40,000 bases of DNA. It comes from Candidatus Altimarinota bacterium (GTDB lineage: Bacteria > Patescibacteriota > Gracilibacteria > JANQMV01). The notes under the pieces are model-generated. The model was given only the letters and a program-made list of their open reading frames with translations. It made no database searches and had not been told where the DNA came from. The stretch is from positions 10,602-50,601 of the forward strand of contig JANQMV010000004.1 in NCBI GenBank assembly GCA_028279865.1. The letters run 5' to 3'. A program made the translations under genes and the position numbers. Below are positions 14,986 through 31,000 of the stretch, in pieces (positions within the stretch are counted from its first letter, which is position 1; the number at the start of each line of letters is the position of its first letter).

Positions 14986-15009
14986 ATCCTTATAGTAATT
15001 TAAAATATT

Positions 15010-15387
15010 CTAATACACTTCACACAAAATTTCTCCTCCAACACCTTGCTTTCTTGCCTCGTCTCCTGACATGACACCTTTTGAAGTAGAAATTAGCGAA
15101 ATACCATAACCATTTAAAACTTTTCCAATTTCACCCTTACCAACATAGATTCTTTGACCTGGCTTACTGATCCTTTTTAAGGTAAGCTTTTTCGTATTAT
15201 CAAGAGTAATATTAAGTGTTTTGAATTTACCATCCACTCCTTCTTTGTAGTCTTGAATAAAGCCTTTTTTTTGGAGTACATCAAGAATATTTTTTTTCAT
15301 CTGAGAAAACGGTACGGCAACAACCTCTTGTCTTGCCATTTGACCGTTTCTGACTCTTGTTAATAAATCTGCTATCGGATCTGTCAT
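15010..15387 (-). CDS. rpsH: 30S ribosomal protein S8 (uS8)
   Basis: 125-aa ORF starting MTDPIADLLTRVRNGQMA. Confidence 0.9.
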   Translation of the reverse strand: MTDPIADLLTRVRNGQMARQEVVAVPFSQMKKNILDVLQKKGFIQDYKEGVDGKFKTLNITLDNTKKLTLKRISKPGQRIYVGKGEIGKVLNGYGISLISTSKGVMSGDEARKQGVGGEILCEVY

Positions 15388-15440
15388 ATCTGATTAAATA
15401 AATGATACTATCTGTTAACTTTAATTAAATTTATTCCTAG

Positions 15441-15497
15441 AGAAGCTTTTAACTTCTAGCTTTTATAAAAGCTAAAGTTCAATAGCTAACAGCTGTC
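15441..15497. repeat. AGCT-rich heptad-like tract containing a 16-nt perfect palindrome (AGCTTTTATAAAAGCT)
   Basis: Palindrome at 15458-15473. AGCTAACAGCT at 15485-15495 is the reverse complement of AGCTGTTAGCT at 11328-11338. Confidence 0.45.
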
Positions 15498-15722
15498 TTA
15501 CCAGCTTGATTTCTTAATTCCCATAATATTACCTGCTCTTGCCTGCTCACGGAAACAAATTCTGCAGATTTGGAAATAACCAATATAACCACGATTTCTT
15601 CCGCAAAGTTTACAACGGTTATAGACACGAGTCTTAAAAACAGGTTTTTTACCTTGCTCCAACTCTCTTTTTAACTTTTTTTGCCGTTTTTCAGTTTTTA
15701 CAATTAATGCTTTTCTAGCCAT
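15498..15722 (-). CDS. rpsN: 30S ribosomal protein S14, short Zn-ribbon (type Z) form
   Basis: 74-aa ORF with CKLCGR...CRICFRE, ending KSSW. Confidence 0.9.
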
Positions 15723-15730
15723 GTGATTAA

Positions 15731-16273
15731 TTAGTTATTTTTCTTAAAAGGAAATCCCATTTCGGCAAGCAACGCTTTTCCTTGTTCAGGATTTTTAGCT
15801 GTTGTTGTGATGGTTATTTGTAATCCGTGAATTTTTGCAATATCTTCAATGTTTAGCTCCGGGAATACAGAGCAATCTTTGAGACCTAAGCTGTAGTTAC
15901 CTTTTTGGTCAAATGATTTAGGAGACACTCCTTGAAAATCACGCACACGAGGAAGAACCACATTAACAAGCCTTTCCATAAAGTCATACATTTTTTGTTT
16001 ACGCAATGTCACGCTTAATCCTACCGGCATTCCGATTCTTAGCTTAAAATTGGAAATCGCCATACGAGCATTGCTTACAACCGGCTTTTGCCCGGTAATC
16101 ATTGCGATATTTTCAGCAATTTCATCATATTTTTTGTTATTACGCATGTATGTTCCAATCCCAATATTCACTTTAATTTTCTCTAACGCAGGTACTGCAT
16201 TAATATTCTTTAAACTTAAATCTTTTAAAAGTTTTTGCCGAATCTCTTTTTGATATCTTTCTCTGAGTGTCAT
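15731..16273 (-). CDS. rplE: 50S ribosomal protein L5 (uL5)
   Basis: 180-aa ORF in the spc-operon position between rplX and rpsN. Confidence 0.9.
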
Positions 16274-16306
16274 TTTAAATGTTAATTATAAACAATATTT
16301 TAAAAT

Positions 16307-16642
16307 TTATTTTGTCTTCTTTTTTGAAAATGATTGGTCAACTGCTGCGTTACATTTTTTACAAATTCTCACTTTTTTACCTTTTTCGGGGACTTGATAA
16401 CCTACTCTTGTTGATTTACTACATTGAGGACAAACAAGTAGGACATTTGAGACACTAATAGGTGCTTCGTATTTTACTTTTTCACCTTGTTTGTTTGCAG
16501 TTTTACGAATGTGCTTAGTCCGGATATTCACTTTTTCTACAACAATTTGATTTTTTGATGTAATAACCCGCAAAACATTACCTGTTTTTCCTTTATCTTT
16601 TCCCGTTGTAACTAGTACGTTGTCATTTGTTTTAATCTTCAT
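16307..16642 (-). CDS. rplX: 50S ribosomal protein L24 (uL24) with CxxC...CxxC
   Basis: 111-aa ORF with a KOW motif (GKDKGKTGNV) and Cys71/74/94/97. Confidence 0.9.
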   Translation of the reverse strand: MKIKTNDNVLVTTGKDKGKTGNVLRVITSKNQIVVEKVNIRTKHIRKTANKQGEKVKYEAPISVSNVLLVCPQCSKSTRVGYQVPEKGKKVRICKKCNAAVDQSFSKKKTK

Positions 16643-16663
16643 CCTGAATAATAAATAAACTTT

Positions 16664-17032
16664 TTATAATACTTCCGGAGCTTGAGAAATGATTTTCTGA
16701 AAACCTTTTGGTCTCAGTTCCCTCGCAATCGGACCAAAAACACGGGTTCCTTTTGGCTGAAGATCTTTATTGATAATCACAACAGCATTTTCATCAAATC
16801 GAATATAGGAACCATCTTTACGGCGAATTTCTTTTGATTGTCTTACAACAACAGCTCTTTCGACACTTTTTTTCTTGACAACACCTTTTGGTGCAGCTTC
16901 TTTCACCGAAACAACGATAACGTCACCGATTCGCGCATACCTTCTTTTTGAACCTCCCAGTACCTTAATACACATTACTCTTTTAGCACCTGTATTATCC
17001 GCTACCTTGAGAATTGTTTGAGTTTGAATCAC
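16664..17032 (-). CDS. rplN: 50S ribosomal protein L14 (uL14)
   Basis: 122-aa ORF starting [17 protein letters not shown]. Confidence 0.9.
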
Positions 17033-17057
17033 TTTTTCAAAAATTAATAAACTAATG

Positions 17058-17291
17058 TTAAGCAGCTACTGCTTCTTCAACTTTCCATCTTTTTAACTTA
17101 CTCATTGGTTTTGTCTCTGAAATCAAAACCAAGTCTCCTTCCTTATATTCTTTTCCGGCAGTATCCGCGTAATATTTTTTACTCACACGATACTTCTTTT
17201 TATAGATAGGATGTGTTTTGTAAGAATGAACAGTTACAACAACTGTATTTTGCATTTTTGTGCTTGTGATTGTTCCTTTTTTTGTTCTCAT
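17058..17291 (-). CDS. rpsQ: 30S ribosomal protein S17 (uS17)
   Basis: 77-aa ORF (...[23 protein letters not shown]...). Lies between rpmC and rplN. Confidence 0.85.
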
Positions 17292-17306
17292 ACAATGATA
17301 AAATTA

Positions 17307-17531
17307 CTAAGCTTTTACTGGTTCTGTCTGATTGGCTTTTTCAATTTCAAACGCTCGTATAATTGTTTTGATTACAGCAATATATTTCTTCATTGCCGTA
17401 ACTTTGTGAGTCGCTTTTTCCTGTCCCATCTTTACTGCAAGCTTGAGTTTTACTAACTCTCTTTTTGATTTGGCAAGCTCAACTTGCAACTCTGGATCTG
17501 ACAAACTTTTGATTTCTTGAATAGTTAACAT
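17307..17531 (-). CDS. rpmC: 50S ribosomal protein L29 (uL29)
   Basis: 74-aa helical ORF (ELQVELAKSKRELVKLKL) after rplP. Confidence 0.8.
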   Translation of the reverse strand: MLTIQEIKSLSDPELQVELAKSKRELVKLKLAVKMGQEKATHKVTAMKKYIAVIKTIIRAFEIEKANQTEPVKA

Positions 17532-17574
17532 CTGATATTGATTATTGGTCTAGTACTTAAGTTTTCATTTCAGA

Positions 17575-17994
17575 CTAATGAATATGTTTAGTCACAAACT
17601 TGGTTTTTACAGGAAGTTTATAGCTTGCAAGCTTAAAAGCTTCTCTTGCTATGCTTTCTTCCACACCATCCATCTCAAACAAGATTCTTCCCGGTTTAAC
17701 CGGCATCACATAGAACTCCAGAGAACCTTTACCCGATCCCATCGGTACTTCGGCAGCCTTACGGGTGATTGGCTTGTGTGGAAACACACGAATCCAAATC
17801 TTACCACCGCGCTTAATATATCTTGTCATTGCCCGTCTAGCCGCTTCAATTTGCCTTGAAGTCAACTCTCCTCTGGTATCAGCTTTTAAACCATAAGAAC
17901 CAAAACTTACAGTATGCCCTACTTGAGACTTTCCTTTTAGCCCACCTCTTCCTCTAAATTGTTTGCGATGTTTTGTCTTTTTTGGTTGTAACAT
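17575..17994 (-). CDS. rplP: 50S ribosomal protein L16 (uL16)
   Basis: 139-aa ORF starting [16 protein letters not shown]. Confidence 0.9.
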
Positions 17995-18085
17995 ATAATT
18001 ATTCTTTTTACTTGAAATTAAAAAACTAATTTCTTAACCCTAAATTTTGCTATGAGATTTTACTGATTTACAGTATAAAATCAAG

Positions 18086-18733
18086 CTATTTTTTTGCTTC
18101 TTGATTATCAAAAACCTCTCCTCTGTAAATCCACACCTTCACTCCGATTACACCATAAGTGGTACTTGCTCTTTCTGTTGCATAAGATATGTCCGCACGT
18201 AGTGTTTGTGTGGGGATTTTCCCTTGCGTAAACATTTCGCTTCTTGCAATTTCCACCCCATTCAATCTTCCTCCCAAGAAAACCTTAATTCCTCTTGCTC
18301 CACTTTCCATTGCCTTTTGAATAGCCATTTTTGCAGCGCGCCTGTAGGCGATTCTTTTCTCAATTTGACGAGCAATACCATCAGCAACCAATTCGGCTTC
18401 AAGCTCTGGCTTTTTAATCTCTTTTATATTAATTTCAAATCTTTCGTTAAACTTTTTTTCCAAATCTGACTTCAGTTGATCAATGGCTGCACCTTGTCGA
18501 CCAATAATTACCCCCGGCTTAGATGTATAGATATTTATGATCACATTCTTGATTGATCTTTCTATTTCGATTCTTGCAATACCTGCATCCACAATCTTTG
18601 AATTAATCGCTTTGCGGATTTCAGTATCTTGCAAAAAGAATTTTGCAAAATTCCTTTTGTTGGCATACCATTTTGAATCCCATGTTCGATTTACGCCGAT
18701 ACGAATTCCTTTTGGATGTACTTTTTGTCCCAC
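18086..18733 (-). CDS. rpsC: 30S ribosomal protein S3 (uS3)
   Basis: 215-aa ORF starting MGQKVHPKGIRIGV, with a KH domain. Confidence 0.9.
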   Translation of the reverse strand: MGQKVHPKGIRIGVNRTWDSKWYANKRNFAKFFLQDTEIRKAINSKIVDAGIARIEIERSIKNVIINIYTSKPGVIIGRQGAAIDQLKSDLEKKFNERFEINIKEIKKPELEAELVADGIARQIEKRIAYRRAAKMAIQKAMESGARGIKVFLGGRLNGVEIARSEMFTQGKIPTQTLRADISYATERASTTYGVIGVKVWIYRGEVFDNQEAKK

Positions 18734-18762
18734 AGTCTAAAAATTAAAAATGTGATAATAAA

Positions 18763-19089
18763 TTATTTTGCCCCCACTTCTACAGTGATATGTGAAGTTC
18801 TTTTAAGAATAGGCTGAGCTCTTCCTCTTGATATAGGATTATGTCTTTTGTATGTCGCCCCCTTTGTCACCAAAATTTTCTTAATTTCCAAATCTCCTCT
18901 GTTTTGCCCCATGTTATTCTCAGCGTTCGAAGTCGCTGAATGCAAAACCTTATAAAGAATCTTTGCACCTTTTTTAGGCATAAATTTAAGCATTGTCAAA
19001 GCTTCTTCTACATCTTTGCCTCGAACCAGACCGGCAATTAAATTTGCCTTTTTCGGTGAGATTCTGATTTGTCTTAATACAGCTTTCAT
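18763..19089 (-). CDS. rplV: 50S ribosomal protein L22 (uL22)
   Basis: 108-aa ORF (RISPKKANLIAGLVRGK...). Confidence 0.9.
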   Translation of the reverse strand: MKAVLRQIRISPKKANLIAGLVRGKDVEEALTMLKFMPKKGAKILYKVLHSATSNAENNMGQNRGDLEIKKILVTKGATYKRHNPISRGRAQPILKRTSHITVEVGAK

Positions 19090-19107
19090 ATTTCGTAAGT
19101 AAGTTTC

Positions 19108-19386
19108 TTATTTTAATTGTTTTGCCAATTTTCCTCCATGCCCGCGGAAAGATCTCGTAGGAGAGAATTCTCCCAACTTGTGACCAACCATGTTTTCACT
19201 AACAAAAACCGGGATAAATTGTTTTCCATTGTAAACTCCAAAAGTGTGTCCTACAAATTCAGGCGGTATGTCGCTATTACGCGCCCAAGTTTTAATAACT
19301 TTCTTACCTCCGGAAGCATTCATAGCTTCCACCTTTTTCATTAGTTTCGCGTCAATGTATGGTCCTTTTTTTAAACTTCTCGCCAT
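19108..19386 (-). CDS. rpsS: 30S ribosomal protein S19 (uS19)
   Basis: 92-aa ORF starting [12 protein letters not shown], with ...[11 protein letters not shown]. Confidence 0.9.
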
Positions 19387-19420
19387 TGTGTGAAATCTTT
19401 AAGTTTTAGAATTTGAAAAA

Positions 19421-20251
19421 TTATTTCTTTCTTTTCTTTAAAATCATTTTATTTGAATATTTTCTTTTACGAGTCTTGAAGCCAAGTGCCGGCATCCCCC
19501 AAGGCGTTTTTGGTGCTTTTAAACCAATTGGAGAATGTCCTTCACCTCCACCATGCGGATGATCACAGGCATTCATGGATTTACCGAGAACCGTTGGTCT
19601 CTTCCCCATCCACCTTGCGCGACCGGCCTTACCAATTTTAATTTGGTTATGTTGTAAATTCCCCAACCTTCCAATGGAAGCAAAACAATCCTTGTGCACC
19701 AATCTAACTTCTCCTGACGGAAGTTGCACTTGTGCATACTTCCCCTCAAGTGAAACTAACTTAGCTGCATTGCCGGCGCTTTTTGCAATTTGACCACCTT
19801 TTCCTTTTGTAATTTCTACATTATAAATTTCAAATCCTACGGGAATACTCTCCAAATGCATTCTGTTCCCTACTTTAATTTTAGCTTTTTTATTAGTAAC
19901 AATCTTGTCACCAACTTTCATGCCATGAGCAGCGAGTATATATCTTTTTTCTCCATCTGCGTATACCACCAAGGCGATAAAAGCACTTCTATTGGGATCA
20001 TATTCAATCCCTTTAACAACTGCGGGAATCCCCAATTTGTCGCTTTGATTGAAGTCAACCAAACGATAGGCTTTCTTATGACCTCCTCCTTGATGCCTTA
20101 CGGTAATTCTTCCTTGGTTATTGCGACCTGCCTTACTTTTCTTTGAAACAATCAAACTTTTTTCAGGAGTTTTCTTTGTTACTTCTGCAAAGTCATTTAC
20201 GGTCATATTCCTACGTCCCGGTGTTGTTGGTTTCAATTTACGAATTCCCAT
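19421..20251 (-). CDS. rplB: 50S ribosomal protein L2 (uL2)
   Basis: 276-aa ORF containing ...[13 protein letters not shown].... Confidence 0.9.
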
Positions 20252-20265
20252 CTTCAGAGTTTAAA

Positions 20266-20568
20266 TTATTTTTCAGATTTAATTTTTAAAGGATCAAAAG
20301 CATTTTTCTTATTTAGTAATGTTACAAATGCTTTTTTATAATCTTTTCTTTTGGTTATATGACGATCTCGTCCAATCATCCTCACCTTTTTCGGTGCCTT
20401 GAGGATATTTACATCTTTTACTGCCACTCCATAAAGTAGTTCAATGGCTTTTTTGACATCAATTTTTGTACTGTCTTTGTGTACATAAAAAGTGTGTTTC
20501 CCTAAAGCATTGTCTTTAAGTCCTTTTTCTGTAACAACCGGCCTAATTATAACATCAAACAATTTCAC
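20266..20568 (-). CDS. rplW: 50S ribosomal protein L23 (uL23)
   Basis: 100-aa ORF (DVIIRPVVTEKG...) between rplD and rplB. Confidence 0.85.
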   Translation of the reverse strand: MKLFDVIIRPVVTEKGLKDNALGKHTFYVHKDSTKIDVKKAIELLYGVAVKDVNILKAPKKVRMIGRDRHITKRKDYKKAFVTLLNKKNAFDPLKIKSEK

Positions 20569-20590
20569 AACTGGTTTTTTAAGTGATTAA

Positions 20591-21220
20591 TTATTTTTTA
20601 ACAAAAATTTCTTCTGCCTTTTTTAGAGCTGGCTCCAAAAAAAGAACTTTTTCATACTTCGCTAAATCTGCAATATTCAGATAGTTTACCAATAATATCT
20701 TTACTCCCGGAATGTTTTTTGCTGATTTTTCAAGTATTTCGTTTTTCTTATCCAGGACAAAAAGTGTCCTTCTTGCTTTTGGTAATTTACCTAGCATTTC
20801 CACAACATGCTTTGTTTTGATTTCTTTTGCATCATATTTATCCAAAGCGGCAATCCCTCCATCTTTTGCTTTAAGTGACAATGCAGAGAATAAAGCTTTT
20901 CTTCTCTGTTTCTTGGGCATGTCTTTTTCAAAATTTCTATTATTTCTCGGTGCCATTGCATTGCCTCCACCTTTGTAGTGAGGGTTACGGATCGAACCTT
21001 GACGGGCACGACCGGTTCCTTTTTGGCGGTAAGGCTTTGCCCCACCTCCGCGGACCTCTCCTTTTGTAAGGGTATGTGCCAAATTAACGCGAGCATTGGA
21101 ATGCTGACGAACCAGAGCTTGATGCATCAATCCTTCATTAATTTCAGCCTTAAAGATAGCATCTGACACCTTGATTGTTTTTAATTTTTCGCCTTTTTGT
21201 GAGTACAAATCAATATTCAC
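20591..21220 (-). CDS. rplD: 50S ribosomal protein L4 (uL4)
   Basis: 209-aa ORF (...KGEVRGGGAKPYRQKGTGRARQGS...). Confidence 0.9.
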   Translation of the reverse strand: MNIDLYSQKGEKLKTIKVSDAIFKAEINEGLMHQALVRQHSNARVNLAHTLTKGEVRGGGAKPYRQKGTGRARQGSIRNPHYKGGGNAMAPRNNRNFEKDMPKKQRRKALFSALSLKAKDGGIAALDKYDAKEIKTKHVVEMLGKLPKARRTLFVLDKKNEILEKSAKNIPGVKILLVNYLNIADLAKYEKVLFLEPALKKAEEIFVKK

Positions 21221-21271
21221 CTTTACTTGAATTAAATTATTTTCTAAAAAAACAAAAGCTTAAGAAAAAAT

Positions 21272-21847
21272 TTAAGCTTTGATATAAACATAGGTATTGC
21301 GAGCTCCGGGAACAGCTCCTTTCACAGCTATAATATTTTTTGCTTCATCAACTAAAACAACCTTGCGGTTTTTTAGCGTGACCTGACCTCCGCCCATGCG
21401 ACCAGGCATTTTTTGTCCCGGCTTTGTCCTCCCTGGCATGGCACAAGCACCTGTTGAACCATGGCGAGTATATTTTGTTCCATGAGTTTCTCGGGCAATT
21501 GCAAAATTATGTCTTTTAATGTTTCCCTGAAAACCCTTCCCCTTTGAGACTGCCGTAATTGTGACAGTTTCAATCTCTTTAAAATTACCTACATTTACTT
21601 TGTCACCTTTTTTAAATTCAGCGTCTTCTTCAATACGAAATTCCTTAACTTTTTTGTATTTTTTATTCTTTGTTGGGTTCTTAAAAGAATCACAACCCAA
21701 AACGACAGCTGAGTAACCGTCATTATCAACTGTTTTCACTTGAATAATATCGTTTGGCTCAGTCTCAATAAAGGTAACGGGAAGAACGATTCCATCTTCA
21801 TTCAAAATTTGAGACATGCCGATTTTTTTACCAATAATTCCTAACAT
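21272..21847 (-). CDS. rplC: 50S ribosomal protein L3 (uL3)
   Basis: 191-aa ORF starting MLGIIGKKIGMSQI, with ...KGKGFQGNIKRHNF.... Confidence 0.9.
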   Translation of the reverse strand: MLGIIGKKIGMSQILNEDGIVLPVTFIETEPNDIIQVKTVDNDGYSAVVLGCDSFKNPTKNKKYKKVKEFRIEEDAEFKKGDKVNVGNFKEIETVTITAVSKGKGFQGNIKRHNFAIARETHGTKYTRHGSTGACAMPGRTKPGQKMPGRMGGGQVTLKNRKVVLVDEAKNIIAVKGAVPGARNTYVYIKA

Positions 21848-21929
21848 TCGTTTTTAGAGGTTAAGGATAGTGAAGATTCTTTTCAAACCCGCACCATCGC
21901 GGCTAACTTATATTTTTTAAAGCGGAGAA

Positions 21930-21958
21930 ATTCTATAGATGTTCAAAACCAAAGTCAA
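21930..21958 (-). promoter_or_regulatory. Candidate sigma-70-type promoter for rplC and the downstream cluster
   Basis: Minus strand reads TTGACT - 17 nt - TAGAAT (-35 at 21953-21958, -10 at 21930-21935), ~80 nt upstream of the rplC ATG. Confidence 0.4.
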
Positions 21959-22240
21959 GGACTTTTTTTGGTTTTTTTGTCGTACTTAAGAAGAACTCAG
22001 GATTTTAATGATTTTACAGGTGAATAAACTAGGATAAAACAATAACACTTTCTAAAGATTAACACAAAAACACAAGATTTATACTTGCTGACATTTTACG
22101 TTTTAGCATTAAAATCAGTTTTCACTAAAAACGATATTCTAGCTACCAAGAACAACTGAAGATTTAGTTCCGAAAATTTTAAGCAAAGTAGATTTGCTTA
22201 AATTGATTCTATAAATATAAAATATATTTGGAACAAAGCA

Positions 22241-22268
22241 TTGACACAACTATGCTTTGTGTTAATAT
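22241..22268 (+). promoter_or_regulatory. Near-consensus sigma-70-type promoter facing the GC-rich island
   Basis: TTGACA (22241-22246) - 16 nt - TAATAT (22263-22268), preceded by an AT-rich UP-like tract. Confidence 0.5.
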
Positions 22269-22473
22269 ATGCATCACAAACCAGCTCTTTAAAATCATTA
22301 GAATATTGATAGGTAAAAATCTGTGATTGATCTGCATCTTATAACACTCACTTCACCTTGTAATTGGGTGGTAGTGATAGTTTCTTGTCTGAATTCAAAC
22401 ACAGATACTCTGCCTATCAAAAAGATTATTCGGGCTATCAAATTAGGGACAACTTATGTTTTCGCTAGCTTGA

Positions 22474-22492
22474 TGGCTCGAACCGGTCGAGC
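22474..22492 (+). other. Perfect hairpin GGCTCGA-accgg-TCGAGCC at the 5' edge of the GC-rich island
   Basis: 7-bp stem seen directly. No T-run follows it. It lies 39 nt upstream of the island ORF start. Confidence 0.5.
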
Positions 22493-22530
22493 CGTATTAA
22501 AGTAAATTTCCTACAAAAGGGGAACAATAC

Positions 22531-22971
22531 ATGAGAGAAGCATTTCTTTTGACAATCAAGGGCCTCGTCCTTAGCCTGCTCATTCTTTGCCTGAACACAC
22601 CCACCATTGCACAATGCGGCGGAGCAGAAGCAGGCGCGTACTTCGCTGACATCAATGGGAAAAATCTCGGGATTAGAATCAGTGCTGTGATCCTTCCCAG
22701 CGGGTGGGTCCAAGTGCTGAACAAGGATGGATTGAAGACTGGGATTATAATCACCCAAGGCAAGACGGAAAACATAAGCGAAAAGGTGTCCGTTAATGGA
22801 AAAACTCGGGGAGCAGCACCCTTTCTTATGCGGAAGCCTACCATAATCAGTTTTCCTGATGGACGCAAACTGGATGTAGTCAACAGATTCACCGAAGTTC
22901 GGGTCGGTGATACCATCATCAAAAAAACAGGAATCGGCGCCTACATCTACCTTGAAATACAGGAGGGATAA
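22531..22971 (+). CDS. Small secreted protein of unknown function, in a compositionally foreign island
   Basis: 146-aa ORF. An SD-like AAAGGGGA lies 7-14 nt upstream of the ATG. N-terminal signal peptide (LLTIKGLVLSLLILCLNTPTIA|QC). The sense frame has purine-rich first codon positions and G/C-rich third positions. TAA stop followed by two terminators. Confidence 0.6.
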   Translation: MREAFLLTIKGLVLSLLILCLNTPTIAQCGGAEAGAYFADINGKNLGIRISAVILPSGWVQVLNKDGLKTGIIITQGKTENISEKVSVNGKTRGAAPFLMRKPTIISFPDGRKLDVVNRFTEVRVGDTIIKKTGIGAYIYLEIQEG

Positions 22972-22998
22972 CGCCCAGAACCGAGGCAGAGTAAAACA

Positions 22999-23038
22999 GG
23001 CGGCGCGCTTTCTCATCCAAGTTGCGCCCGCCTTTTTT
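22999..23038 (+). terminator. GC-rich rho-independent terminator of the island gene
   Basis: GGCGGCGCGC ... GCGCCCGCC stem (one bulge) followed by TTTTTT. Confidence 0.6.
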
Positions 23039-23063
23039 ACCATACAATTTTTTATCTACTACA

Positions 23064-23097
23064 AAAAAAGACATCTCTTTTGAAATGTCTTTTTTAT
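23064..23097. terminator. Bidirectional terminator between rpsJ (minus) and the island gene (plus)
   Basis: AAAGACAT-ctcttttgaa-ATGTCTTT hairpin with an A-run upstream and a T-run downstream. On the minus strand it lies ~25 nt past the rpsJ stop and is followed by TTTTTTT. Confidence 0.65.
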
Positions 23098-23118
23098 AAA
23101 TACTAATTATCACTCGTT

Positions 23119-23451
23119 CTACTTATCAGCGTTTTGAAACATTTTAATTTCAATCTCTACACCTGCCGGAAGACTTAAGTTTGAGAGTGTGTCAATCGTT
23201 TGCGAAGTTGCGTCAAGGATGTCAATTAACCTTTTGTGAGTTCTCATTTCGTATTGATCACGTGAGTCTTTGTTTACAAAAGTCGAGCTATTGACTGTAA
23301 ATTTTTTGATTTTTGTCGGAAAAGGGATTGGTCCCGCTACAATCGCACCTGTTCTTTCTGCAGATTCTACAATAATCCCCGCAGCTTTATCAATCACACT
23401 GTGATCAAAAGCTTTGATTGTAATTCTGATTTTCTGACTCTTTGCTGCCAT
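23119..23451 (-). CDS. rpsJ: 30S ribosomal protein S10 (uS10)
   Basis: 110-aa ORF ([19 protein letters not shown]..., RTHKRLIDI). Immediately downstream of tuf. Confidence 0.9.
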
Positions 23452-23462
23452 TTAAATATATT

Positions 23463-23475
23463 TTAGATTTTAGAA
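23463..23475 (-). promoter_or_regulatory. Conserved AU-rich motif TTCTAAAATCTAA, 11 nt upstream of the rpsJ ATG
   Basis: Third exact copy of the 13-mer. Confidence 0.35.
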
Positions 23476-23632
23476 CTTAGAGATTAAAAAGAGTGTCATA
23501 TGAGTCTATCGAAACACAAGACATCCACATGATTGTCACTCTTAGCCCCATATTGCGGGCTTAGAGGACGCTTTGTAAAAATAAACTTCATCTCCCGCCC
23601 AACTTAAAAACTAAATTGTGCGGGATAAAAAT

Positions 23633-24838
23633 CTATTTTTTGATTTTAGATACTACACCAGCACCTACGGTTCTACCGCCTTCACGGATTGCAAACCTTA
23701 AACCTTCTGCCATCGCAATCGCAGAGCCAAGTTTTACATCCATTTTAATGTTATCACCAGGCATCACCATTTCTACTCCTTCCGGAAGAACAATTTCTCC
23801 GGTCACATCAGTTGTACGGATGTAGAATTGAGGTTTATAACCTTTGAAGAACGGAGTATGACGTCCTCCTTCTTCTTTTGTTAGTACGTATACTTCAGCT
23901 TCAAATTCTGTATGTGGAGTAATTGTTCCCGGCTTAGCAAGAACCTGTCCACGTTCAATTTCTTCTCTTTCAATTCCGCGTAGAAGAGCCCCGATATTGT
24001 CACCAGCTTGACCTTGATCAAGAAGTTTTTTAAACATTTCCACTCCTGTTACCACTACTTTTCTGGTTTCTTTGATTCCGACAATTTCAACTTCTTCATT
24101 CACTTTAACGATACCTTGTTCAACTCTACCTGTCGCAACTGTTCCACGTCCTTTGATTGAGAAAACGTCTTCAACCGGCATTAAAAATGGTTTATCAAGT
24201 TCACGAACCGGATCCGGCACGTCGTTATCCACAGCTTCCATAAGCTCAAGAATTTTTCCACACCATTCACATTCTTTTTTACCACACATACATTCAAGTG
24301 CTTTCAAAGCCGAACCTCTGATAATAGAAATATCATCACCAGGGAATTCGTATTTAGAAAGAAGTTCGCGTACTTCCATTTCAACCAATTCGACAAGTTC
24401 TTCGTCATCTACCATGTCTACTTTATTCAAGAAGACAACGATATGAGGAACGTTTACCTGACGAGCAAGTAAGATATGTTCACGAGTCTGAGGCATTGGA
24501 CCATCAGCGGCAGAACATACCAAGATTGCACCATCCATTTGGGCAGCACCTGTAATCATGTTCTTTACGTAATCGGCATGACCTGGACAGTCAACGTGAG
24601 CATAGTGACGTTTTTCTGTTTCGTATTCAACGTGAGCTGTTGCAATTGTAATTCCTCTTTCTCTTTCTTCAGGAGCATTATCAATTTGATCAAAAGCTTT
24701 TGCTGTGTTAGCTCCTCCGAAAGCAGCTGCAAGAACGTTTGTAATTGCTGCTGTTAATGTTGTTTTTCCGTGATCAACGTGACCGATCGTACCTACATTC
24801 ACATGCGGTTTACTACGATCAAATGTAGCGTCTGCCAT
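23633..24838 (-). CDS. tuf: Elongation factor Tu with a Cys4 insertion in domain I
   Basis: 401-aa ORF with [15 protein letters not shown] and NKVD motifs. Contains an unusual [14 protein letters not shown] segment. Confidence 0.95.
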
Positions 24839-24914
24839 AACAATAATAAGTTAAAAAATAGTTCAGCTTATGTTTTCAGAATAATAAGCACTTACAAAAA
24901 TTGCAAGCGCAGGG

Positions 24915-25045: not shown

Positions 25046-28000
25046 TTAAATTCAACCAATTATTGTAAAGATCACAGATCATCTATAAACATCACTCTCC
25101 TGATTGTAATCAATGTTTATGTAATAAAAGAGGTCGTTTTGATCATTTTCAATCCGGCTACCATGTGAAACACCTGTATCAGCCGTACTTGAGAGAGTGC
25201 CGAACGAATTGACTGTGACAGCAGTACTTGTTAGAGCCCAACCAAAACGATTTTCAACATTTTTAGCATCACCTGTAAGTAATTGATTGCCGGTGTTTGT
25301 TGTTCCGTCCAAGACAGCCGATCAGGTCGCAGAATGTCCTGACAAGGCTATACGTAGGGAATATCAATTTTCGTTGTTTGTACTTACGGTTACCGTGTTT
25401 TTTTGTGTGACAGCACCTCCTGTTCCCGCCCAGTTTTGCCCCATTTGAAAGTCAGGGTCAATATTGAAAACCACCGAACCGGTATCTACCGAAGCAACCA
25501 AGGCTTCTTGAAGCTGAACGTTCAAAGCAACTTGTTGTGCTGAGATAGTAATATCAGCCAGACCGCTTTCCAATAGAGTACTACCTGAATTATAGATATT
25601 AATTGTCAATTCATAAACTCAAGTTGAAGCAGGATTTTTTACCTTATTATTACTAAAGCGCATTTCAAGCACGTCACCGACAGCGACACTGCCTGTAATT
25701 GTGGAAACAACCGTAGTTCCTGTGGAGTTTACAAGATCAACGCTACCAGAGATACTTCCGCTTGCTGATTGGACTGTGATATCACTTTCTGCCAAACTGC
25801 CTGTAAATGCATACGCGCCACTGTTAAAAATTACTTCCATCTTATCTCCTGTGTTTAGTTCAATGCTAACGGGAAAATAGACAATATAATTTGTGGTATC
25901 AGCAATACGAATGCTTTCTGCAGAGACAGACCCTCTTTCTCCATTTGTAGTGTCGAAAGTGAAGGTTGCCGAAGCTGTTTTTTCTTCATTTTGAGCAGTA
26001 TCGGTTGCACGGCTTTTAATTGTATAGCGACCTCCATTCGTCCAAACGGGTGAAATATATGTCCAATTTTCCGCACCATCAGCCAACAGCCAGACTTCAC
26101 TAGTTGCGACAAAGCCTGTTCCCGAATACCATTTGTCTGCGGTTAAATCCTTAATACTGACTCTAACGAAATCAACAGCTGTTTGGGCGTCGGAAGCTGT
26201 TCCAATAATTTTGGGTAATGCACTCAAATCATCTCCATCTCTCGGATAGAGAATTTTTGAACTTGGTTCTTGTGTTTCGAGGCTAAAAGTTGCAGTTTGG
26301 GAACTCCAAACACCTTCTCCACTGTCATCATCCCAAAACTTAATTCTCCAATAGTAGGTAATACCTCCGCTTAATTGATCCCCGGCATAAGTAATCGCCT
26401 CGCAGACTGTGTTAACCAAACAACCTGTACCTGACAACGCAGTTCCGCCAGAACCTGAATCCCAAAGAGTCGTACCTGTAAAAGTAGAAGCTGTATTGAC
26501 TTGAATTTGATATTTTAGTGCGATATCCCCAGCATCACTGTCTCGATAAATTGCGGTAAATTCCGGCGTTGGATTAGGGAGATTAATAGGGTTTGCATTG
26601 CTTTCTGTTTTTAAAGTATCGGGGGCAGAGGGTTTCGCGTTTAAATCTGCCAAAAAACTGGCGGTTTCTGTGCTCCAGACTCCTTCGTTACCCTCATCAT
26701 CCCAAAATTTAATCCTATAGTAGTAAGTTGTATTATGAATTAATGTTGCTCCTGAGTAAATAATGTCACTTGAGCGATTCCCTGCGGTGATGTTGGTAAT
26801 CGTCACACCTGTACCCGAATCCCACTCCGGACTTGAGAAATCGCTGTTGTCATCAACCTGAATTTGGTAAGCATTGGCAATATCGCCTGCTTCAGGATCA
26901 TTGTAAATTGCAGAAAAATGTGGAGTGTTCGAGGTGATGCTCACACCTGTACCGGATGTGCCGGATTGGGCGTCTGTGTCATTGACATAAAGTATTGTTG
27001 GCTCTGTCGGAGCCGGATCTTCAGTGTACTTTATCGCTATTTGATTTATTTCCGAAGAATCTGTCTCTCCGTATGGGCTAGATGGTGGAGTGAAGTCTGA
27101 TGTCCAACGGGCTTCACCTTTGGTTATACGGATTTCGTCAAGATAGCCATCGAAATAAGTTGAAGCTGTTGGAACCCCATTTGGAACACCAGCTCAGAAT
27201 GATAATACTCCATCACTATCGACAAAAGTTAATCCTGTCACATCTACAGTCTCCTGAAGAGTACCATTTTGAAATAAGTAAACAGTATTACCACTACGCA
27301 CCATGGCAATGTGATCCCACTGTCCAGCATTAACCGTACCAAACGTCGTGCTTGGCCCCCAAGATGATCCTGTAGTTGATGTATGAAACCCAAAATCAAC
27401 TCCTGACATCACATAAAGTTGAACTGGAGAATAATTAGAAGCAAGTTTTTGTGTCACGAGCGCTTGATGCTCCGTACCAGATATATAATTAACCCAAAAA
27501 TCAATCGTAAAATCCTCACTGCCAAAGTCCCAATCATCACTATCCGGAAGAGTTAAACAATCTCCTGTCCCATCAAAATACATCGCACTTTTGCCAAACT
27601 TATGACTGACACTATGTTTTATGTCTCCATTTGCCGTAACCACATGTCCTGTGGATGCTCCGAAAGAATTGTCTGTAAAACTTGTAGAATTTGATGTTTT
27701 GTCAGATTGCAGTAACAAAACCGTATTCGCATCATTACCTAATCCCAGATCGTACTTGGCAGTCGGTGGCATGAAATTGGAAGTCCAGCGAGCTAAGCCT
27801 TTTGTAACACGTAGTTCATCGAGAAATCATTTCCACTCACTTTGAGGACCTCCCGAGTACTCTGCACCAATCGTAAGCACAGAATCTGAATCAAGCATTG
27901 TATCACCTCCAACGCTATTACTTCACACGTCTTGTCCATCCAAATAAATTGTTATAATATTTCAATTTCGTACTAAAGCAACATGGTGCCAATCATAATC

Positions 28001-31000
28001 CCACGATTGTGAACTAGAATTAAAATTCTTATTTCCACTTTCATTCGACCAAAAATATCCTGTTAAACGATCTCCAATAATTCTAAGTCCAAATGATTCA
28101 TGCATAGATGTATCTAACGAAGTTATAATCCAAGGATTTACACCAATGCCTGATTCTCTTTTGAACCAAGTATCAATCGTAAAATCTCCATTACCAAAGT
28201 CAAAATCATCCGAATCCGGAATACTCAAATAATCTCCCGTCCCATCAAAATACATCGCACTTTTGCCAAACACGGAATTTCGAACATGCTTTACATCACC
28301 ATTTATAGTAATTGCATGACTGCTATCAGAATCATCTGCAAAGGCTGCAGAGCCGTTTTCTGCATCCGAATGAATTAGGAGTTTTGTCTTTTCGTCATTT
28401 CAGTTTGTCACATCATCATTTGCCTGCAAGCTTACTGCTACGTCCAAAGATGTTTGACTCTTGTCAAAACCGCCTGTTTCTACCCAGTCAGAATCCATCA
28501 CAGCAGCAAGGTCATCTGCGGTCATTTGATTATCACGATATTTTGTCGCTTGAGATATGGCAGAATTCGCTGTATCACCACCCAAAGTTTCAGCTAATTC
28601 CCATGTATCCAAACTCGCAGGATAAGATGGAACTGTAAAATCAGAAGTCCAGCGGGCGATTCCTTTAGAAATACGCAGGTCGTCCACATACCCATTTAAA
28701 TAATTGCCTCAATCGCTTGTTTGTCCTCCAACTTGCAGCGGAATGCTTGGATTAACCCAATTTGTTCCTGCACTAATGGAATCTTCAATTAATAATGATC
28801 CATTTAAATATACTTTTAAAACATTTCCCTCTCTTATAATTGCAATATGATTCCATGCATTTTGTATAACTGAATTAGTGGAACTTTGAGTGTTTACTTC
28901 AGCAGTCCCTGCATTGACCATTACCGTATATAAGTTACTATTTTCGATCCTCGTATACCACCTATTGCTGACATCTTCCCATTGACTAATCAAATATTGT
29001 GTCCCGGACAAACTTCTTGGATTCACCCAAAAATCAATTGTAAAGTCTTCGCTTCCAAAATCCCAATCATCACTATCCGGAATGGACAAATAATCATCCA
29101 CTCCATCAAAAGAGAGAGCGTCACCAAACTCATCTGGAAGTCCGGAAATTTTTACATCTCCATTTGCAACTGGTAGATGATTTGAACTTGAAGAATCTGT
29201 AAAAGTTGTCGAGCCTTCTGGTCCATCCATATTTAATAACAATTTTGTATTTATATCTGCAGAATGAGGAATCGTAGGAACTACGATAGAATCAGAATCA
29301 TCACTTTGAGGACTAGCACCATATCTATTATCATGCGTTATTTTTAGACTTTCCATCGCCCCTTCAAAATCATCACCATTCCCATAATTCCCAATCAATA
29401 ATGCCCCTGCAAACGTATCAACATTTGATTCTGAAAGATATTTAACCTGTTGTCCATTCACATATACGCCATATTCATTTCCAATTTTAATTAACGCGAT
29501 ATGTGTCCATTCATTATTGCTCAAAGGATGGTTTGTTCCAGTTATATCAACAATATATGAACCACCACTTCTCATTTCAAAATCTAAGCCACCACCATTA
29601 ATATGGAAGAATCTCCAAAAATTATTAATATCTTCGTACTGAGCTACATAACATTCATCCGTTGTTAAGTCAGTGTGTTTAACCCATAAATCAATCGTCA
29701 TATTCGTTCCAATATCCCAGTCAGTACTATCTGGCAAACTCAAATAATCACCCGTTCCATCAAAATATGCTGCCTGACCAAATCTGGCAGTATCATCCAT
29801 TTTCGTACCACCATTAAAAGTCACATCATGTTCCGATAAAGAACGATCTCCATCAAAATGTAAAAGTAGTTTTGTGTTGCTATCTGGAGTTTGGGCAGAA
29901 ACCGGCGGAGTGAAGTTTGAAGTCCAAAGTGCTTTACCTTTTGTGACACGAACTTCATCAAGTGATCCATTAAAATCAAAAGTTCCTGTATTCCATTGAG
30001 AACCTGTTCTTCCGTGTCCTCTTCCCACCTCAAATTTACCACCATTTACTGTTCCAGAAAGTGAGGTTGTTGTTCCAACAGATTGACCATTCAAATACAT
30101 TGTTATTGTCCCACTATTATTAGCAATAGCAACATGGTGCCAACCTGATTCCAAAAGCACAGAATTGCTAAAATCCGCAATTGTGTTTCAATCTCCCCAA
30201 TAAAATCTTAACAAATTAGAAGATTTTGTCAGCCTGATGCTCCATCAGTTACTTCAACCTACTCCGTCTGTATATGCTAGATGAATCCCATCGTTATTCT
30301 TCTGATTAAACCAATAATCAATAGTCCAATCAGTAGCAAAAGACAAATCCCAATCTTGTGAATCAGGGATAGTTAAATAATCATCCACTCCATCAAACTG
30401 CATCGCCCCACCGATCTTCCCACGATTATCTAACTTCGGATTTCCGTTCGTAGTAATTGCATGATTTGAAGGTGAAGAATCTCCTTCTCCGTGTAAAAGA
30501 AGTTTTATATTTTCATCCTGCCTGAGGTATCCCCATTTACCTGAATCAACGCCAGAAAATCCGGTCGTTGCGTCCACTTTGGAGGCAATTGTTCTCCAAG
30601 CACTTGCAATCTTATCCCAAATTTTGAACTCATTTCTGCCATCAAAACTAAGTGAATAAAAAGAATCTGAATCGTTGCTTAATTCATTTACGCTAACTCC
30701 GTCAATTCCTTGCCAAGCCGAAGTATCCACTTGGTCAGTTGATGTAATTGTAGTGTAGGTTTCCGCTGGCGCGCTTTCTTCAACTGTTCCTACAATTTTT
30801 AAATTGTCTATATATTGAGAACCTCCTGTTGCGCCACCCCATACAACGTAATCATTTCAATCGTAGAAGGAATGTCCTGTTATGTCCAAAGTTTGCCTCT
30901 GGGGCCAGACAAGGCTTGATTCGGAAGGAGAAGGGTACCAAGTCACTTGGTTACCAATTCTTTCTATTTTTACGTAATACCATGTTCATGCTGAGAAGCT

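What the first reader, a model, noticed from the sequence alone, without database searches (positions are those of the whole stretch)
22455..23045. GC-rich foreign island with an opposite-strand secreted-protein gene inserted between rpsJ and rplC
In bacteria rplC normally follows rpsJ directly within the S10 operon. Here the two are 1,271 bp apart (21848-23118).

The distal ~0.6 kb of that gap is compositionally foreign. My hand counts on 60-nt lines give 57% and 50% G+C inside the island, against 27% in the adjacent spacer and 18% on one sampled 60-nt line within rplW.

The island encodes a 146-aa ORF on the opposite (+) strand. Four features mark that ORF as a real, imported gene:
- A typical signal peptide.
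- Codon usage unlike every native gene (CTC/CTG/GGC/ATC-type codons rather than the A/T-ending codons used elsewhere).
- An SD-like AAAGGGGA. The native genes I inspected have none.
- Its own GC-rich terminator (22999-23038).

This looks like a horizontally acquired cargo gene lodged in one of the most conserved junctions of the genome. It could have come from a higher-GC organism such as a host, but the sequence cannot show that.

An alternative is that the GC-rich segment is mainly a structured RNA. Three overlapping ORFs longer than 140 aa stay open across it.
Basis: partly seen in the sequence, partly recalled or inferred. Interest (0 to 1): 0.7.

Follow-up and report, generated by a model that had tools for sequence, protein, structure and literature searches.

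The report
Foreign orphan gene between rpsJ and rplC
A small, GC-rich gene with no known relatives, probably acquired from another organism and encoding an exported protein, sits between two ribosomal-protein genes of a Peregrinibacteria-like bacterium; in this lineage that spot is an operon boundary that holds different genes in different relatives, so the case is real but fairly ordinary.

Summary
rpsJ and rplC are 1,271 bp apart. The segment 22455-23045 is the most GC-rich 591-nt stretch of the 40 kb (48.2% against a mean of 37%). It carries a 146-codon plus-strand ORF with its own SD-like site and a GC hairpin followed by a T-run.

ORF146 is the true coding frame. It shows strong period-3 signal, native-like amino-acid composition and 73% purine at codon position 1. 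The two antisense ORFs follow from its codon usage. The 192-aa antisense ORF carries an NCBI source tag, so it was probably called on the wrong strand there.

The GC-rich core is not a structured RNA: Rfam gives nothing and the fold z-scores are unremarkable.

An assembly chimera is unlikely. Two independent single-run assemblies cross both borders at 100% identity, and a third crosses the left border.

ORF146 has no credible homologue in about 15 billion proteins. Its GC3 is 0.52 against 0.21-0.39 in native genes, and all relatives sampled lack it. It is therefore lineage-specific, and horizontal acquisition is the likeliest origin.

The "most conserved junction" premise fails in this clade. 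rplC has its own conserved promoter and structured leader. In ten relatives the junction is direct (2), carries histidine-kinase-like genes (3), carries other genes (3, one with three opposite-strand GC-rich lipoprotein genes), or rpsJ is not nearby (2).

Function is unknown; I infer a small exported beta-rich envelope protein. Interest is low to moderate.

The parts
23119..23451 (-). rpsJ (ribosomal protein S10), last gene of the tuf-rpsJ unit
   Evidence: ORF list. PF00338 on the identical gene in L002/L003.
23061..23102 (.). AU-rich hairpin (stem arms 23064-23077 and 23082-23095) flanked by an A-run and a T-run. Intrinsic terminator for rpsJ, and likely bidirectional.
   Evidence: Inverted repeat I10, 14 nt, 93% complementary. 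Fold -16 kcal/mol, z = -4.5. By eye, comparable hairpin + T-run sequences follow rpsJ in L087 and L091.
22999..23038 (+). GC-rich hairpin GGCGGCGCGC...GCGCCCGCC followed by T6. Terminator of ORF146, convergent with rpsJ.
   Evidence: Sequence. Fold -27.5 kcal/mol, z = -4.2, 0 of 200 shuffles as good. Not flagged by the consensus scan; I attribute this to its 15-nt loop.
22531..22971 (+). ORF146: orphan gene for a 146-aa protein with an N-terminal hydrophobic signal or anchor and a beta-rich remainder. GC 47.8%, GC3 52.4%.
   Evidence: Period-3 power 4.9 against 0.75+-0.43 in shuffles (P = 0 of 2,000); sliding z about 7. Purine at codon position 1 is 0.73; real genes in the window give 0.57-0.77. 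Amino-acid log-odds 0.121/aa against native 0.130+-0.049. Homology searches return only itself plus weak repeat-inflated hits.
22516..22523 (+). SD-like AAAGGGGA, 7 nt upstream of the ATG
   Evidence: 17 native genes show no comparable motif.
22300..22500 (+). Strongly structured region just upstream of ORF146. Two long imperfect hairpins (22306-22420 and 22424-22487) plus a competing hairpin GGCTCGA-ACCGG-TCGAGCC (22475-22493). Candidate 5' leader; function untested.
   Evidence: 22275-22530 (+) has MFE -76.2 against shuffles -48.8+-4.2, z = -6.5. The minus strand gives z = -4.0. Sliding 150-nt windows give z = -3.5 to -4.5. No Rfam match. No homologues, so covariation cannot be tested.
22241..22268 (+). 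Promoter-like TTGACA-16-TAATAT preceded by TG. Possible ORF146 promoter, which would give a leader of about 255 nt.
   Evidence: Consensus scan only, 10 of 12 matches. 11 sites were found against 7.0+-2.5 expected in shuffles, so the evidence is weak.
21969..23060 (.). Lineage-specific segment (about 1.1 kb) with no similarity to any relative's junction. It has an AT-rich part (21969-22300), the structured part, ORF146 and its terminator.
   Evidence: blastn homology to L084, L085, L087 and L086 stops at window 21968-21977. tblastn with relatives' junction proteins finds nothing.
21848..21968 (-). Conserved rplC promoter (TTGACT-17-TAGAAT, 21958-21930) and leader of about 80 nt with a 16-bp hairpin and an invariant TCCTTAACC...CT box before the ATG
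   Evidence: 92-95% nucleotide identity to L084, L085 and L087. Alignment of 9 lineages. Hairpin is 94% paired against 40-57% in slid controls, with 4 pairs showing double changes.
21272..21847 (-). rplC (L3), first gene of the rplC-rplD-rplW-rplB... unit
   Evidence: PF00297.
22465..23043 (-). 192-aa antisense ORF. It carries an NCBI source tag and was called in two Logan assemblies, but it is a by-product of ORF146's codon usage.
   Evidence: P0125 has sources ncbi and lgn and no homologues. Purine at position 1 is 0.53. Amino-acid log-odds -0.049/aa, 11 Cys. ORF146 has no TTA, CTA or TCA codons, so this frame is open in 100% of codon-order shuffles.

Best explanation
ORF146 (22531-22971, +) is a genuine, lineage-specific protein-coding gene of foreign composition. 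It was most likely acquired horizontally after this lineage split from relatives that share about 84% L3 identity.

It lies in the spacer between two separately transcribed units. One is tuf-rpsJ, which ends in its own terminator. The other is rplC onward, which starts at its own conserved promoter and leader.

The gene appears to be an insulated monocistronic unit on the opposite strand. It has an upstream promoter (position inferred), a structured leader of about 200 nt (function inferred), and an SD-like site that native genes lack. Its GC-rich terminator sits back-to-back with the rpsJ terminator, so neither transcript should run antisense into the other.

The product is predicted to be a small exported or membrane-anchored, all-beta protein. 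I commit to a cell-envelope or surface role. That fits the other secreted or lipoprotein cargo seen at this junction in a relative, but its activity is unknown.

Shown: the coding frame, composition, signals, absence from relatives, and variability of the junction. Inferred: horizontal origin, promoter, export and function.
For: **Coding frame.**
- Period-3 z is about 7, and purine at codon position 1 is 0.73.
- Amino-acid composition log-odds is 0.121/aa against a native mean of 0.130.
- The antisense ORFs score like antisense of native genes and are explained by codon content.

**Foreign composition.** GC3 is 0.524 against 0.21-0.39 in native genes, with an SD-like site where native genes have none.

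**Real junctions.** L002 and L003, from separate sequencing runs, span both borders at 100% identity. L001 spans the left border.

**Lineage-specific.**
- Nothing turned up in the 5.8-billion-cluster search for either strand's ORF.
- The full HMMER search of 1.84 billion representatives gave only repeat-inflated hits.
- Phage, plasmid, viral-contig and metagenome-contig searches were empty.

**Operon boundary and variable cargo.**
- The promoter and leader are conserved upstream of rplC.
- A terminator follows rpsJ.
- The relatives' junctions differ from one another.

**Export.** The N-terminus is hydrophobic. AF2 gives helix 2-22 at pLDDT 70-75 and strands thereafter, at low confidence.
Against: - No homologue exists, so there is no test for purifying selection. 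All assemblies are identical, so there are no polymorphisms to use.
- No donor, integrase, tRNA, direct repeat or other insertion scar was found.
- The promoter rests on a consensus match in AT-rich DNA, where such matches are common.
- Both structure predictions are unusable (pLDDT 34-38).
- The signal peptide was not scored by a dedicated predictor, and there is no canonical lipobox.
- There is no evidence of expression.
Confidence: 0.66

Rival explanations
1. The segment is imported DNA that is not functional. On this reading ORF146 is an intact relic, or a fragment of a foreign gene, that has not yet decayed and is not expressed or selected in this host.
For: It is an orphan with no family. 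There is no amelioration of GC3. No expression or selection data are available. It is present in only one lineage.
Against: The ORF is complete, with start, SD-like site, N-terminal export signal, stop and terminator. Small, reduced genomes such as those of CPR bacteria tend to delete useless DNA (general knowledge). The back-to-back terminators suggest a working layout.
Confidence: 0.15
2. The gene is native rather than imported. It would be a fast-evolving or newly arisen lineage-specific gene whose GC content has another cause, such as sequence constraints from an overlapping RNA structure.
For: No donor or mobility signature was found. Orphan small secreted proteins are said to be common in CPR genomes (general knowledge). 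A structured region adjoins the gene.
Against: GC3 of 0.52 lies far outside the native range of 0.21-0.39, and its codon choices are rare in native genes. It has an SD-like site in a genome whose genes lack one. The coding core has no excess RNA structure. A new gene arising from 27-30% GC spacer would not be GC-rich.
Confidence: 0.1
3. The real gene is the 192-aa ORF on the ribosomal-gene strand (22465-23043, -). It carries an NCBI source tag and was called in two Logan assemblies, and it would be co-transcribed with rpsJ and rplC.
For: It is the longest ORF and lies on the same strand as the neighbours. Gene callers chose it.
Against: Purine at codon position 1 is 0.53, typical of spurious ORFs. 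Amino-acid log-odds is -0.049/aa with 11 Cys. It has no SD-like motif and sits directly behind the rpsJ terminator. It is open in 100% of codon-order shuffles of ORF146. It has no homologues.
Confidence: 0.04
4. The GC-rich core is mainly a structured non-coding RNA, following the usual pattern of a GC-rich island in an AT-rich genome, and the ORFs are incidental.
For: GC-rich intergenic islands in AT-rich genomes often mark structured RNAs (general knowledge). Three frames are open. The whole-island fold gives z = -1.95 on the plus strand.
Against: There are no Rfam matches at gathering thresholds, and only noise at E <= 10, and no tRNA or tmRNA. Within 22450-22960, sliding z-scores run from -1.56 to +0.49 on the plus strand; the island's z comes from the terminator and the upstream hairpin. 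Strong period-3 and protein-like composition are not expected of an RNA gene.
Confidence: 0.03
5. The island is an assembly chimera that joins reads from a higher-GC organism into the ribosomal cluster.
For: There is an abrupt composition change in a metagenome-derived contig.
Against: Single-run assemblies from three different runs (SRR20820732, -34, -35) are 100% identical to the window. Two span both borders and one spans the left border. The borders carry no repeat shared with other sequence.
Confidence: 0.02

Closest known systems
Small genomic islet: a horizontally acquired orphan (ORFan) gene
   Same: Atypical GC and codon usage. Absent from close relatives. No detectable homologues. 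Carries its own expression signals. Lies at a boundary between transcription units.
   Different: Only about 0.5-1.1 kb with a single gene. There is no integrase, tRNA target, flanking direct repeats or other mobility marks, so the insertion mechanism is unknown.
Lineages in which rpsJ is not fused to the rplC cluster. From memory, not tested here: in cyanobacteria and plastids rps10 is reported to travel with tufA in the str operon.
   Same: rpsJ sits with tuf and ends in a terminator, while rplC heads a separate unit with its own promoter. More distant relatives have rpsJ more than 5 kb from rplC.
   Different: In the window the two units are still adjacent, and the spacer has become a site of variable cargo. 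The E. coli S10 operon, by contrast, runs rpsJ-rplC-rplD... with an L4-responsive leader upstream of rpsJ (PMC3616713).
MmpS family (mycobacterial small membrane proteins that accompany MmpL transporters)
   Same: Similar size (146 against 141 aa) and layout, with an N-terminal helix and a beta-rich domain. A marginal 61-residue alignment to MmpS4 (E = 0.05-0.15).
   Different: Not significant. Pfam returned no family at E <= 1. No MmpL or RND transporter gene was identified near the gap (Pfam was not run on the neighbours). ORF146 has a 52-residue C-terminal extension. Treat as a lead only.
Opposite-strand lipoprotein genes at the same junction in relative L136 (SDBT01005471.1)
   Same: Same position, convergent with rpsJ and divergent from rplC. 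Small (156-174 aa) exported proteins. GC3 above the flanking ribosomal genes (0.53-0.67 against 0.43-0.46). SD-like sites by eye.
   Different: No sequence similarity to ORF146. They have canonical lipoboxes (LVGC, LAGC, SIGC), whereas ORF146 has IAQC. There are three genes rather than one.

Membership tests
Protein-coding gene (ORF146, + strand) | Three-base periodicity, purine-rich first codon position and protein-like amino-acid composition in the proposed frame | tested here: met
   Period-3 power exceeded in 0 of 2,000 shuffles; purine at position 1 is 0.73. Amino-acid log-odds 0.121/aa against native 0.130+-0.049, with both antisense frames negative.
Protein-coding gene (ORF146, + strand) | Conservation under purifying selection in homologues | not testable with these tools
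   No homologue or polymorphism is available.
Horizontally acquired genomic island | Base composition and codon usage unlike the host genome | tested here: met
   GC3 is 0.524 against 0.21-0.39 in 44 native ORFs. It is the top 591-nt GC window in the 40 kb.
Horizontally acquired genomic island | Absent from closely related genomes at the same locus | tested here: met
   Ten relatives at 59-85% L3 identity carry no homologous segment. L185 and L187 were judged from their gene tables only.
Horizontally acquired genomic island | Mobility marks: integrase or transposase, tRNA target, flanking direct repeats or terminal inverted repeats | tested here: not met
   No tRNA. Only a low-complexity 21-nt, 81% inverted match at 21972-92 and 23049-69, which overlaps functional A/T runs. 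No mobility gene lies in the gap.
Horizontally acquired genomic island | Identifiable donor lineage or homologue elsewhere | tested here: not met
   Searches found none.
Sec-type secreted protein (cleavable signal peptide) | n-region, hydrophobic h-region and a c-region with small residues at -3 and -1 | tested here: inconclusive
   The h-region spans residues 6-21 (Kyte-Doolittle up to 2.98). AF2 gives helix 2-22. TIA|QC fits the -3/-1 rule by eye. No dedicated predictor was available, so an uncleaved signal anchor is equally possible.
Bacterial lipoprotein | Lipobox [LVI][ASTVI][GAS]C at the end of the signal peptide | tested here: not met
   The two candidates are LIL-C19 and IAQ-C29, and neither has G, A or S at position -1 (sequence).
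MmpS family | Significant match to an MmpS family profile or to solved MmpS structures | tested here: not met
   Pfam returned no family at E <= 1. PDB phmmer gave E = 0.05 and 0.15 only.
SdrD_B / CarboxypepD_reg-like beta-sandwich domain | Significant profile match to the repeat domain | tested here: not met
   hhalign probability was 15.9% over 49 columns. The HMMER E-values come from summing 4-8 repeats.
Known structured RNA families (Rfam 15) | Covariance-model score at or above the family's gathering threshold | tested here: not met
   0 matches over the whole window. The best sub-threshold hits are unrelated noise.
Intrinsic (Rho-independent) terminator, ORF146 3' end | Stable GC-rich hairpin immediately followed by a U-run | tested here: met
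   22999-23032 hairpin plus T6, -27.5 kcal/mol, z = -4.2. The 15-nt loop is atypical.
Canonical S10 operon (E. coli type) | rpsJ and rplC co-transcribed from a promoter and leader upstream of rpsJ | tested here: not met
   A terminator follows rpsJ. A conserved promoter and leader lie directly upstream of rplC in 8 of 9 aligned lineages. Transcription itself was not measured.

The most novel reading that the evidence does not exclude
The rpsJ|rplC boundary in this Peregrinibacteria-like clade may be a preferred landing site where foreign genes for exported or surface proteins are repeatedly captured. They would sit on the opposite strand, divergent from the strong rplC promoter region. The window's ORF146 and the three GC-rich lipoprotein genes of L136 are the two examples seen. 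On this reading the roughly 200-nt, strongly folded region upstream of ORF146 is a new cis-regulatory RNA controlling the captured gene.
Probability: 0.1. Interest if true: 0.55.

Novelty: new member of a known kind. Interest (0 to 1): 0.3.

Why it matters
**Annotation.** The protein on record with an NCBI source tag at this locus is the 192-aa antisense ORF. The evidence here points to the 146-aa plus-strand gene instead.

**Ribosomal synteny.** The ribosomal-protein block is routinely treated as a fixed syntenic unit when metagenome-assembled genomes are placed in phylogenies and checked for quality. In this CPR clade the S10|L3 link is not fixed. An interruption there should not be read as misassembly or as something exceptional.

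**If the novel reading holds.** Repeated capture of foreign exported-protein genes next to a strong ribosomal promoter would be a modest but useful clue. It would bear on how reduced-genome, probably symbiotic bacteria acquire and express surface factors.

Tried and rejected
- **Structured RNA in the GC-rich core.** Rfam gave nothing at gathering thresholds or at E <= 10. ARAGORN found nothing. Whole-island folds and sliding z-scores show no excess structure in the coding core. Rejected.
- **Remnant of the relatives' histidine-kinase gene.** tblastn of junction proteins from L084, L087 and L086 against the gap found nothing.
- **Mobile-element borders.** Repeat search gave only low-complexity matches. 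By-eye inspection found no attC-like R''/R' boxes downstream of ORF146.
- **Protein homology.** Pfam, NCBIfam, PHROGs and PADLOC gave no families. The 5.8-billion-cluster search returned only the query for ORF146 and for ORF192. The full HMMER search gave three giant repeat proteins whose scores come from summed repeats. hhalign to those repeats gave 16% probability. The PDB search gave a marginal MmpS4 match.
- **Structure prediction.** The full-length and mature forms gave pLDDT 37.6 and 33.5, so no fold search was run.
- **Phage, plasmid, viral-contig and JGI metagenome searches** by protein and by DNA found nothing.
- **Genome-contig scan with L3** returned only relatives at 47% identity or less and was uninformative.
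- **Metagenome scan with the rplC-leader motif** gave 92 stretches, of which only two were real (L136, L155).
- **Literature search for the run accessions** found nothing.
Full report
**Setting.** The window is an AT-rich (37% G+C) bacterial chromosome segment. It carries tuf, rpsJ and the S10/spc ribosomal-protein cluster on the minus strand. The closest named L3 proteins are annotated Candidatus Peregrinibacteria or Gracilibacteria, so the organism is a Patescibacteria/CPR member. The species-representative genome scan returned nothing closer than 47% L3 identity.

**Observation.**
- rpsJ (23119-23451, -) and rplC (21272-21847, -) are 1,271 bp apart.
- 22455-23045 is 48.2% G+C and is the highest 591-nt window in the 40 kb. 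The mean is 37.0% with sd 3.4%, and only 0.05% of windows reach this value.
- At 60-nt resolution the GC-rich core is 22531-23040 (43-60%). The left edge is gradual.
- Three ORFs overlap here: 146 aa (+), 192 aa (-) and 141 aa (-). This never happened in 5,000 dinucleotide shuffles.

**Assembly.** Three single-run Logan assemblies (SRR20820734, -35, -32) are 100% identical to the window. Two span both island borders and one spans the left border. A chimera is therefore very unlikely.

**Which frame is real.**
- The plus-strand ORF146 has strong three-base periodicity: power 4.9 against 0.75+-0.43, and a sliding z of about 7 confined to 22550-22950.
- Purine at codon position 1 is 0.73, matching native genes (0.57-0.77). 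ORF192 has 0.53, which resembles the window's spurious ORFs.
- Amino-acid composition log-odds is 0.121 per residue for ORF146, against a native mean of 0.130+-0.049. ORF192 scores -0.049 and ORF141 scores -0.134, and the antisense of native genes averages -0.063.
- ORF146 contains no TTA, CTA or TCA codons, so the same-register antisense frame is necessarily open. The second antisense frame stays open for at least 130 codons in 8% of codon-order shuffles.
- One real gene with GC-leaning codons therefore explains all three ORFs.
- ORF192 carries an NCBI source tag and was called in two Logan assemblies, so the public call appears to be on the wrong strand.

**RNA alternative.**
- Rfam gives nothing at gathering thresholds across the window, and only noise at E <= 10 in 21800-23200. 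There is no tRNA or tmRNA.
- The island folds with z = -1.95 on the plus strand and -0.85 on the minus strand.
- In sliding windows the coding core is unremarkable, with plus-strand z from -1.56 to +0.49. The signal comes from the terminators and from a region upstream of the ORF.
- The GC-rich core is therefore not a structured RNA.

**Signals.**
- AAAGGGGA lies 7 nt upstream of the ATG. None of 17 native genes inspected has an SD-like motif.
- Downstream, GGCGGCGCGC...GCGCCCGCC plus T6 (22999-23038) folds at -27.5 kcal/mol with z = -4.2.
- Immediately beyond it, the hairpin at 23064-23095 is flanked by an A-run and a T-run (z = -4.5). It terminates rpsJ and probably works in both directions.
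- ORF146 and rpsJ therefore converge on back-to-back terminators.
- Upstream, a consensus promoter match (TTGACA-16-TAATAT preceded by TG, 22241-22268) is the best candidate. This is weak evidence in AT-rich DNA.
- Between that site and the ATG, 22275-22530 folds far better than shuffles on the plus strand (z = -6.5). The minus strand gives z = -4.0.
- The fold consists of two long imperfect hairpins plus a competing local hairpin.
- It may be a regulatory leader, but without homologues there is no covariation test.

**Homology.**
- ORF146 finds only itself among 5.8 billion clusters.
- A full HMMER pass over 1.84 billion representatives adds three giant repeat proteins (SdrD_B/CarboxypepD_reg and Calx-beta). 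Their scores arise from 4-8 summed repeat matches.
- A profile comparison to those repeats gives only 16% probability.
- Pfam, NCBIfam, PHROGs and PADLOC give no family.
- The PDB search gives a marginal 61-residue match to MmpS4 (E = 0.05). MmpS4 has a similar size and an N-terminal helix followed by a beta domain. This is a lead only.
- AF2 without an alignment is unusable (pLDDT 37.6 and 33.5). It does predict an N-terminal helix (residues 2-22, pLDDT 70-75) followed by strands.
- Hydropathy supports an N-terminal export signal or anchor. There is no canonical lipobox.
- Phage, plasmid, viral-contig and metagenome-contig searches are empty.

**The junction in relatives.** L3 homologues and their contigs give ten informative relatives.

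| Locus | L3 identity | rpsJ-rplC junction |
|---|---|---|
| L088 | 78% | direct, 80 bp |
| L090 | 74% | direct, 123 bp |
| L084/L085 | 85% | same-strand HisKA/HATPase_c gene at native GC |
| L087 | 83% | same-strand HisKA/HATPase_c gene at native GC |
| L155 | 82% | C-terminal end of what looks by eye like a similar kinase gene |
| L086 | 84% | four unrelated ORFs; no rpsJ within 2.8 kb |
| L091 | 61% | four metabolic genes |
| L136 | 59% | three opposite-strand putative lipoprotein genes (lipoboxes LVGC, LAGC, SIGC); GC3 0.53-0.67 against 0.43-0.46 in flanking genes |
| L185 | 59% | no rpsJ within 5 kb of rplC (trp genes upstream) |
| L187 | 60% | no rpsJ within 5 kb of rplC |

- L086, L136 and L155 show no similarity to the window's 21969-23060. 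For L084-L091 the only similarity is the conserved rplC promoter and leader. L185 and L187 were compared by their gene tables only.
- A neighbour-joining tree of L3 places the window inside the clade whose members all have expanded junctions. The two direct-junction genomes branch outside it.

**Why the site is permissive.**
- About 120 nt directly upstream of rplC (window 21848-21968) are 92-95% identical to L084, L085 and L087. That is more conserved than the L3 protein itself.
- This block contains TTGACT-17-TAGAAT and a leader of about 80 nt.
- Across nine lineages the leader forms a 16-bp hairpin. It is 94% paired, against 40-57% in slid controls.
- Four pairs show changes on both sides. 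The covariation score is 0.325 against 0.164 in shuffles, reached by 0 of 500.
- The promoter is present even in L090, which has only a 123-bp spacer.
- rplC therefore heads its own transcription unit, and rpsJ belongs with tuf. DNA inserted between the rpsJ terminator and the rplC promoter does not disrupt ribosomal-protein expression.
- In E. coli, by contrast, rpsJ and rplC share one L4-regulated operon (PMC3616713).

**Verdict.**
- The finding is real and its central reading is the best explanation: a compositionally foreign, self-contained gene for an exported protein.
- It is lodged at an operon boundary that is variable throughout this clade, not at a conserved junction.
- It is a new orphan member of a familiar kind, a small acquired gene islet, and its function is unknown.

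Noticed in passing
window 21848-21968 (minus strand); also L084:4873-5003, L087:3690-3820, L086:2810-2940, L155:799-929(-), L090:1059-1184, L091:4873-5003, L136:3846-3976: There is a conserved promoter and a structured leader of about 80 nt directly upstream of rplC. The leader has a 16-bp hairpin with compensatory changes and an invariant TCCTTAACC...CT box about 11 nt before the ATG. It has no Rfam match. It may be a new ribosomal-protein autoregulatory leader in a Peregrinibacteria-like clade.
   Followed up: partly
window 22300-22500 (+): The region upstream of ORF146 folds very strongly (22275-22530: z = -6.5 on the plus strand, -4.0 on the minus strand). It forms two long imperfect hairpins plus a mutually exclusive local hairpin at 22475-22493, and the SD-like site sits in a small hairpin. 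It could be a regulatory leader or a relic inverted-repeat element. No homologues are available to test this.
   Followed up: partly
L136:1811-3723 (contig SDBT01005471.1): In a relative with 59% L3 identity, the same rpsJ-rplC spacer (2.2 kb) holds three opposite-strand putative lipoprotein genes of 174, 156 and 165 aa. Their GC3 is 0.53-0.67 against 0.43-0.46 in flanking genes. Two share a C..HP..CTP motif. They are unrelated to ORF146 but have the same layout.
   Followed up: partly
L084:3889-4836, L087:2682-3524, L155:802-1103 (minus strand; upstream of rplC): The closest relatives carry a soluble HisKA/HATPase_c histidine-kinase-like gene between rpsJ and rplC, on the ribosomal strand and at native GC. 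The L084 and L087 copies are only 27% identical to each other, although L3 is about 84% identical.
   Followed up: partly
window 22465-23043 (-): The protein on record with an NCBI source tag at this locus is the 192-aa antisense ORF (P0125), not ORF146. This is probably a wrong-strand gene call.
   Followed up: yes
window 15000-24840 (start regions of 17 genes): The native ribosomal-protein genes and tuf have no Shine-Dalgarno-like motif upstream of their start codons. Several use GTG starts.
   Followed up: partly
window 23633-24838 (-), EF-Tu residues about 182-194; also L084, L087, L088: EF-Tu carries a four-cysteine motif, C[10 protein letters not shown], just after GSALKALE. It is conserved in all four clade members checked and looks like a metal-binding knuckle.
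   Followed up: partly
window 25600-35000 (-): A run of large ORFs carries a recurring motif of the form 'FDGTGDYLS(I/L)PDS(D/T)DWD(F/I)G' (seen three times in one 483-aa ORF and again in two nearby ORFs). These are probably surface proteins. GC is slightly raised (41-43%) in 25-27 kb.
   Followed up: no
window 21972-21992 and 23049-23069: A 21-nt, 81% complementary inverted match sits almost exactly at the two ends of the lineage-specific segment. It is A/T low-complexity sequence that overlaps the rplC upstream A-tract and the rpsJ terminator A-run. It is probably chance, but terminal inverted repeats cannot be fully excluded.
   Followed up: partly
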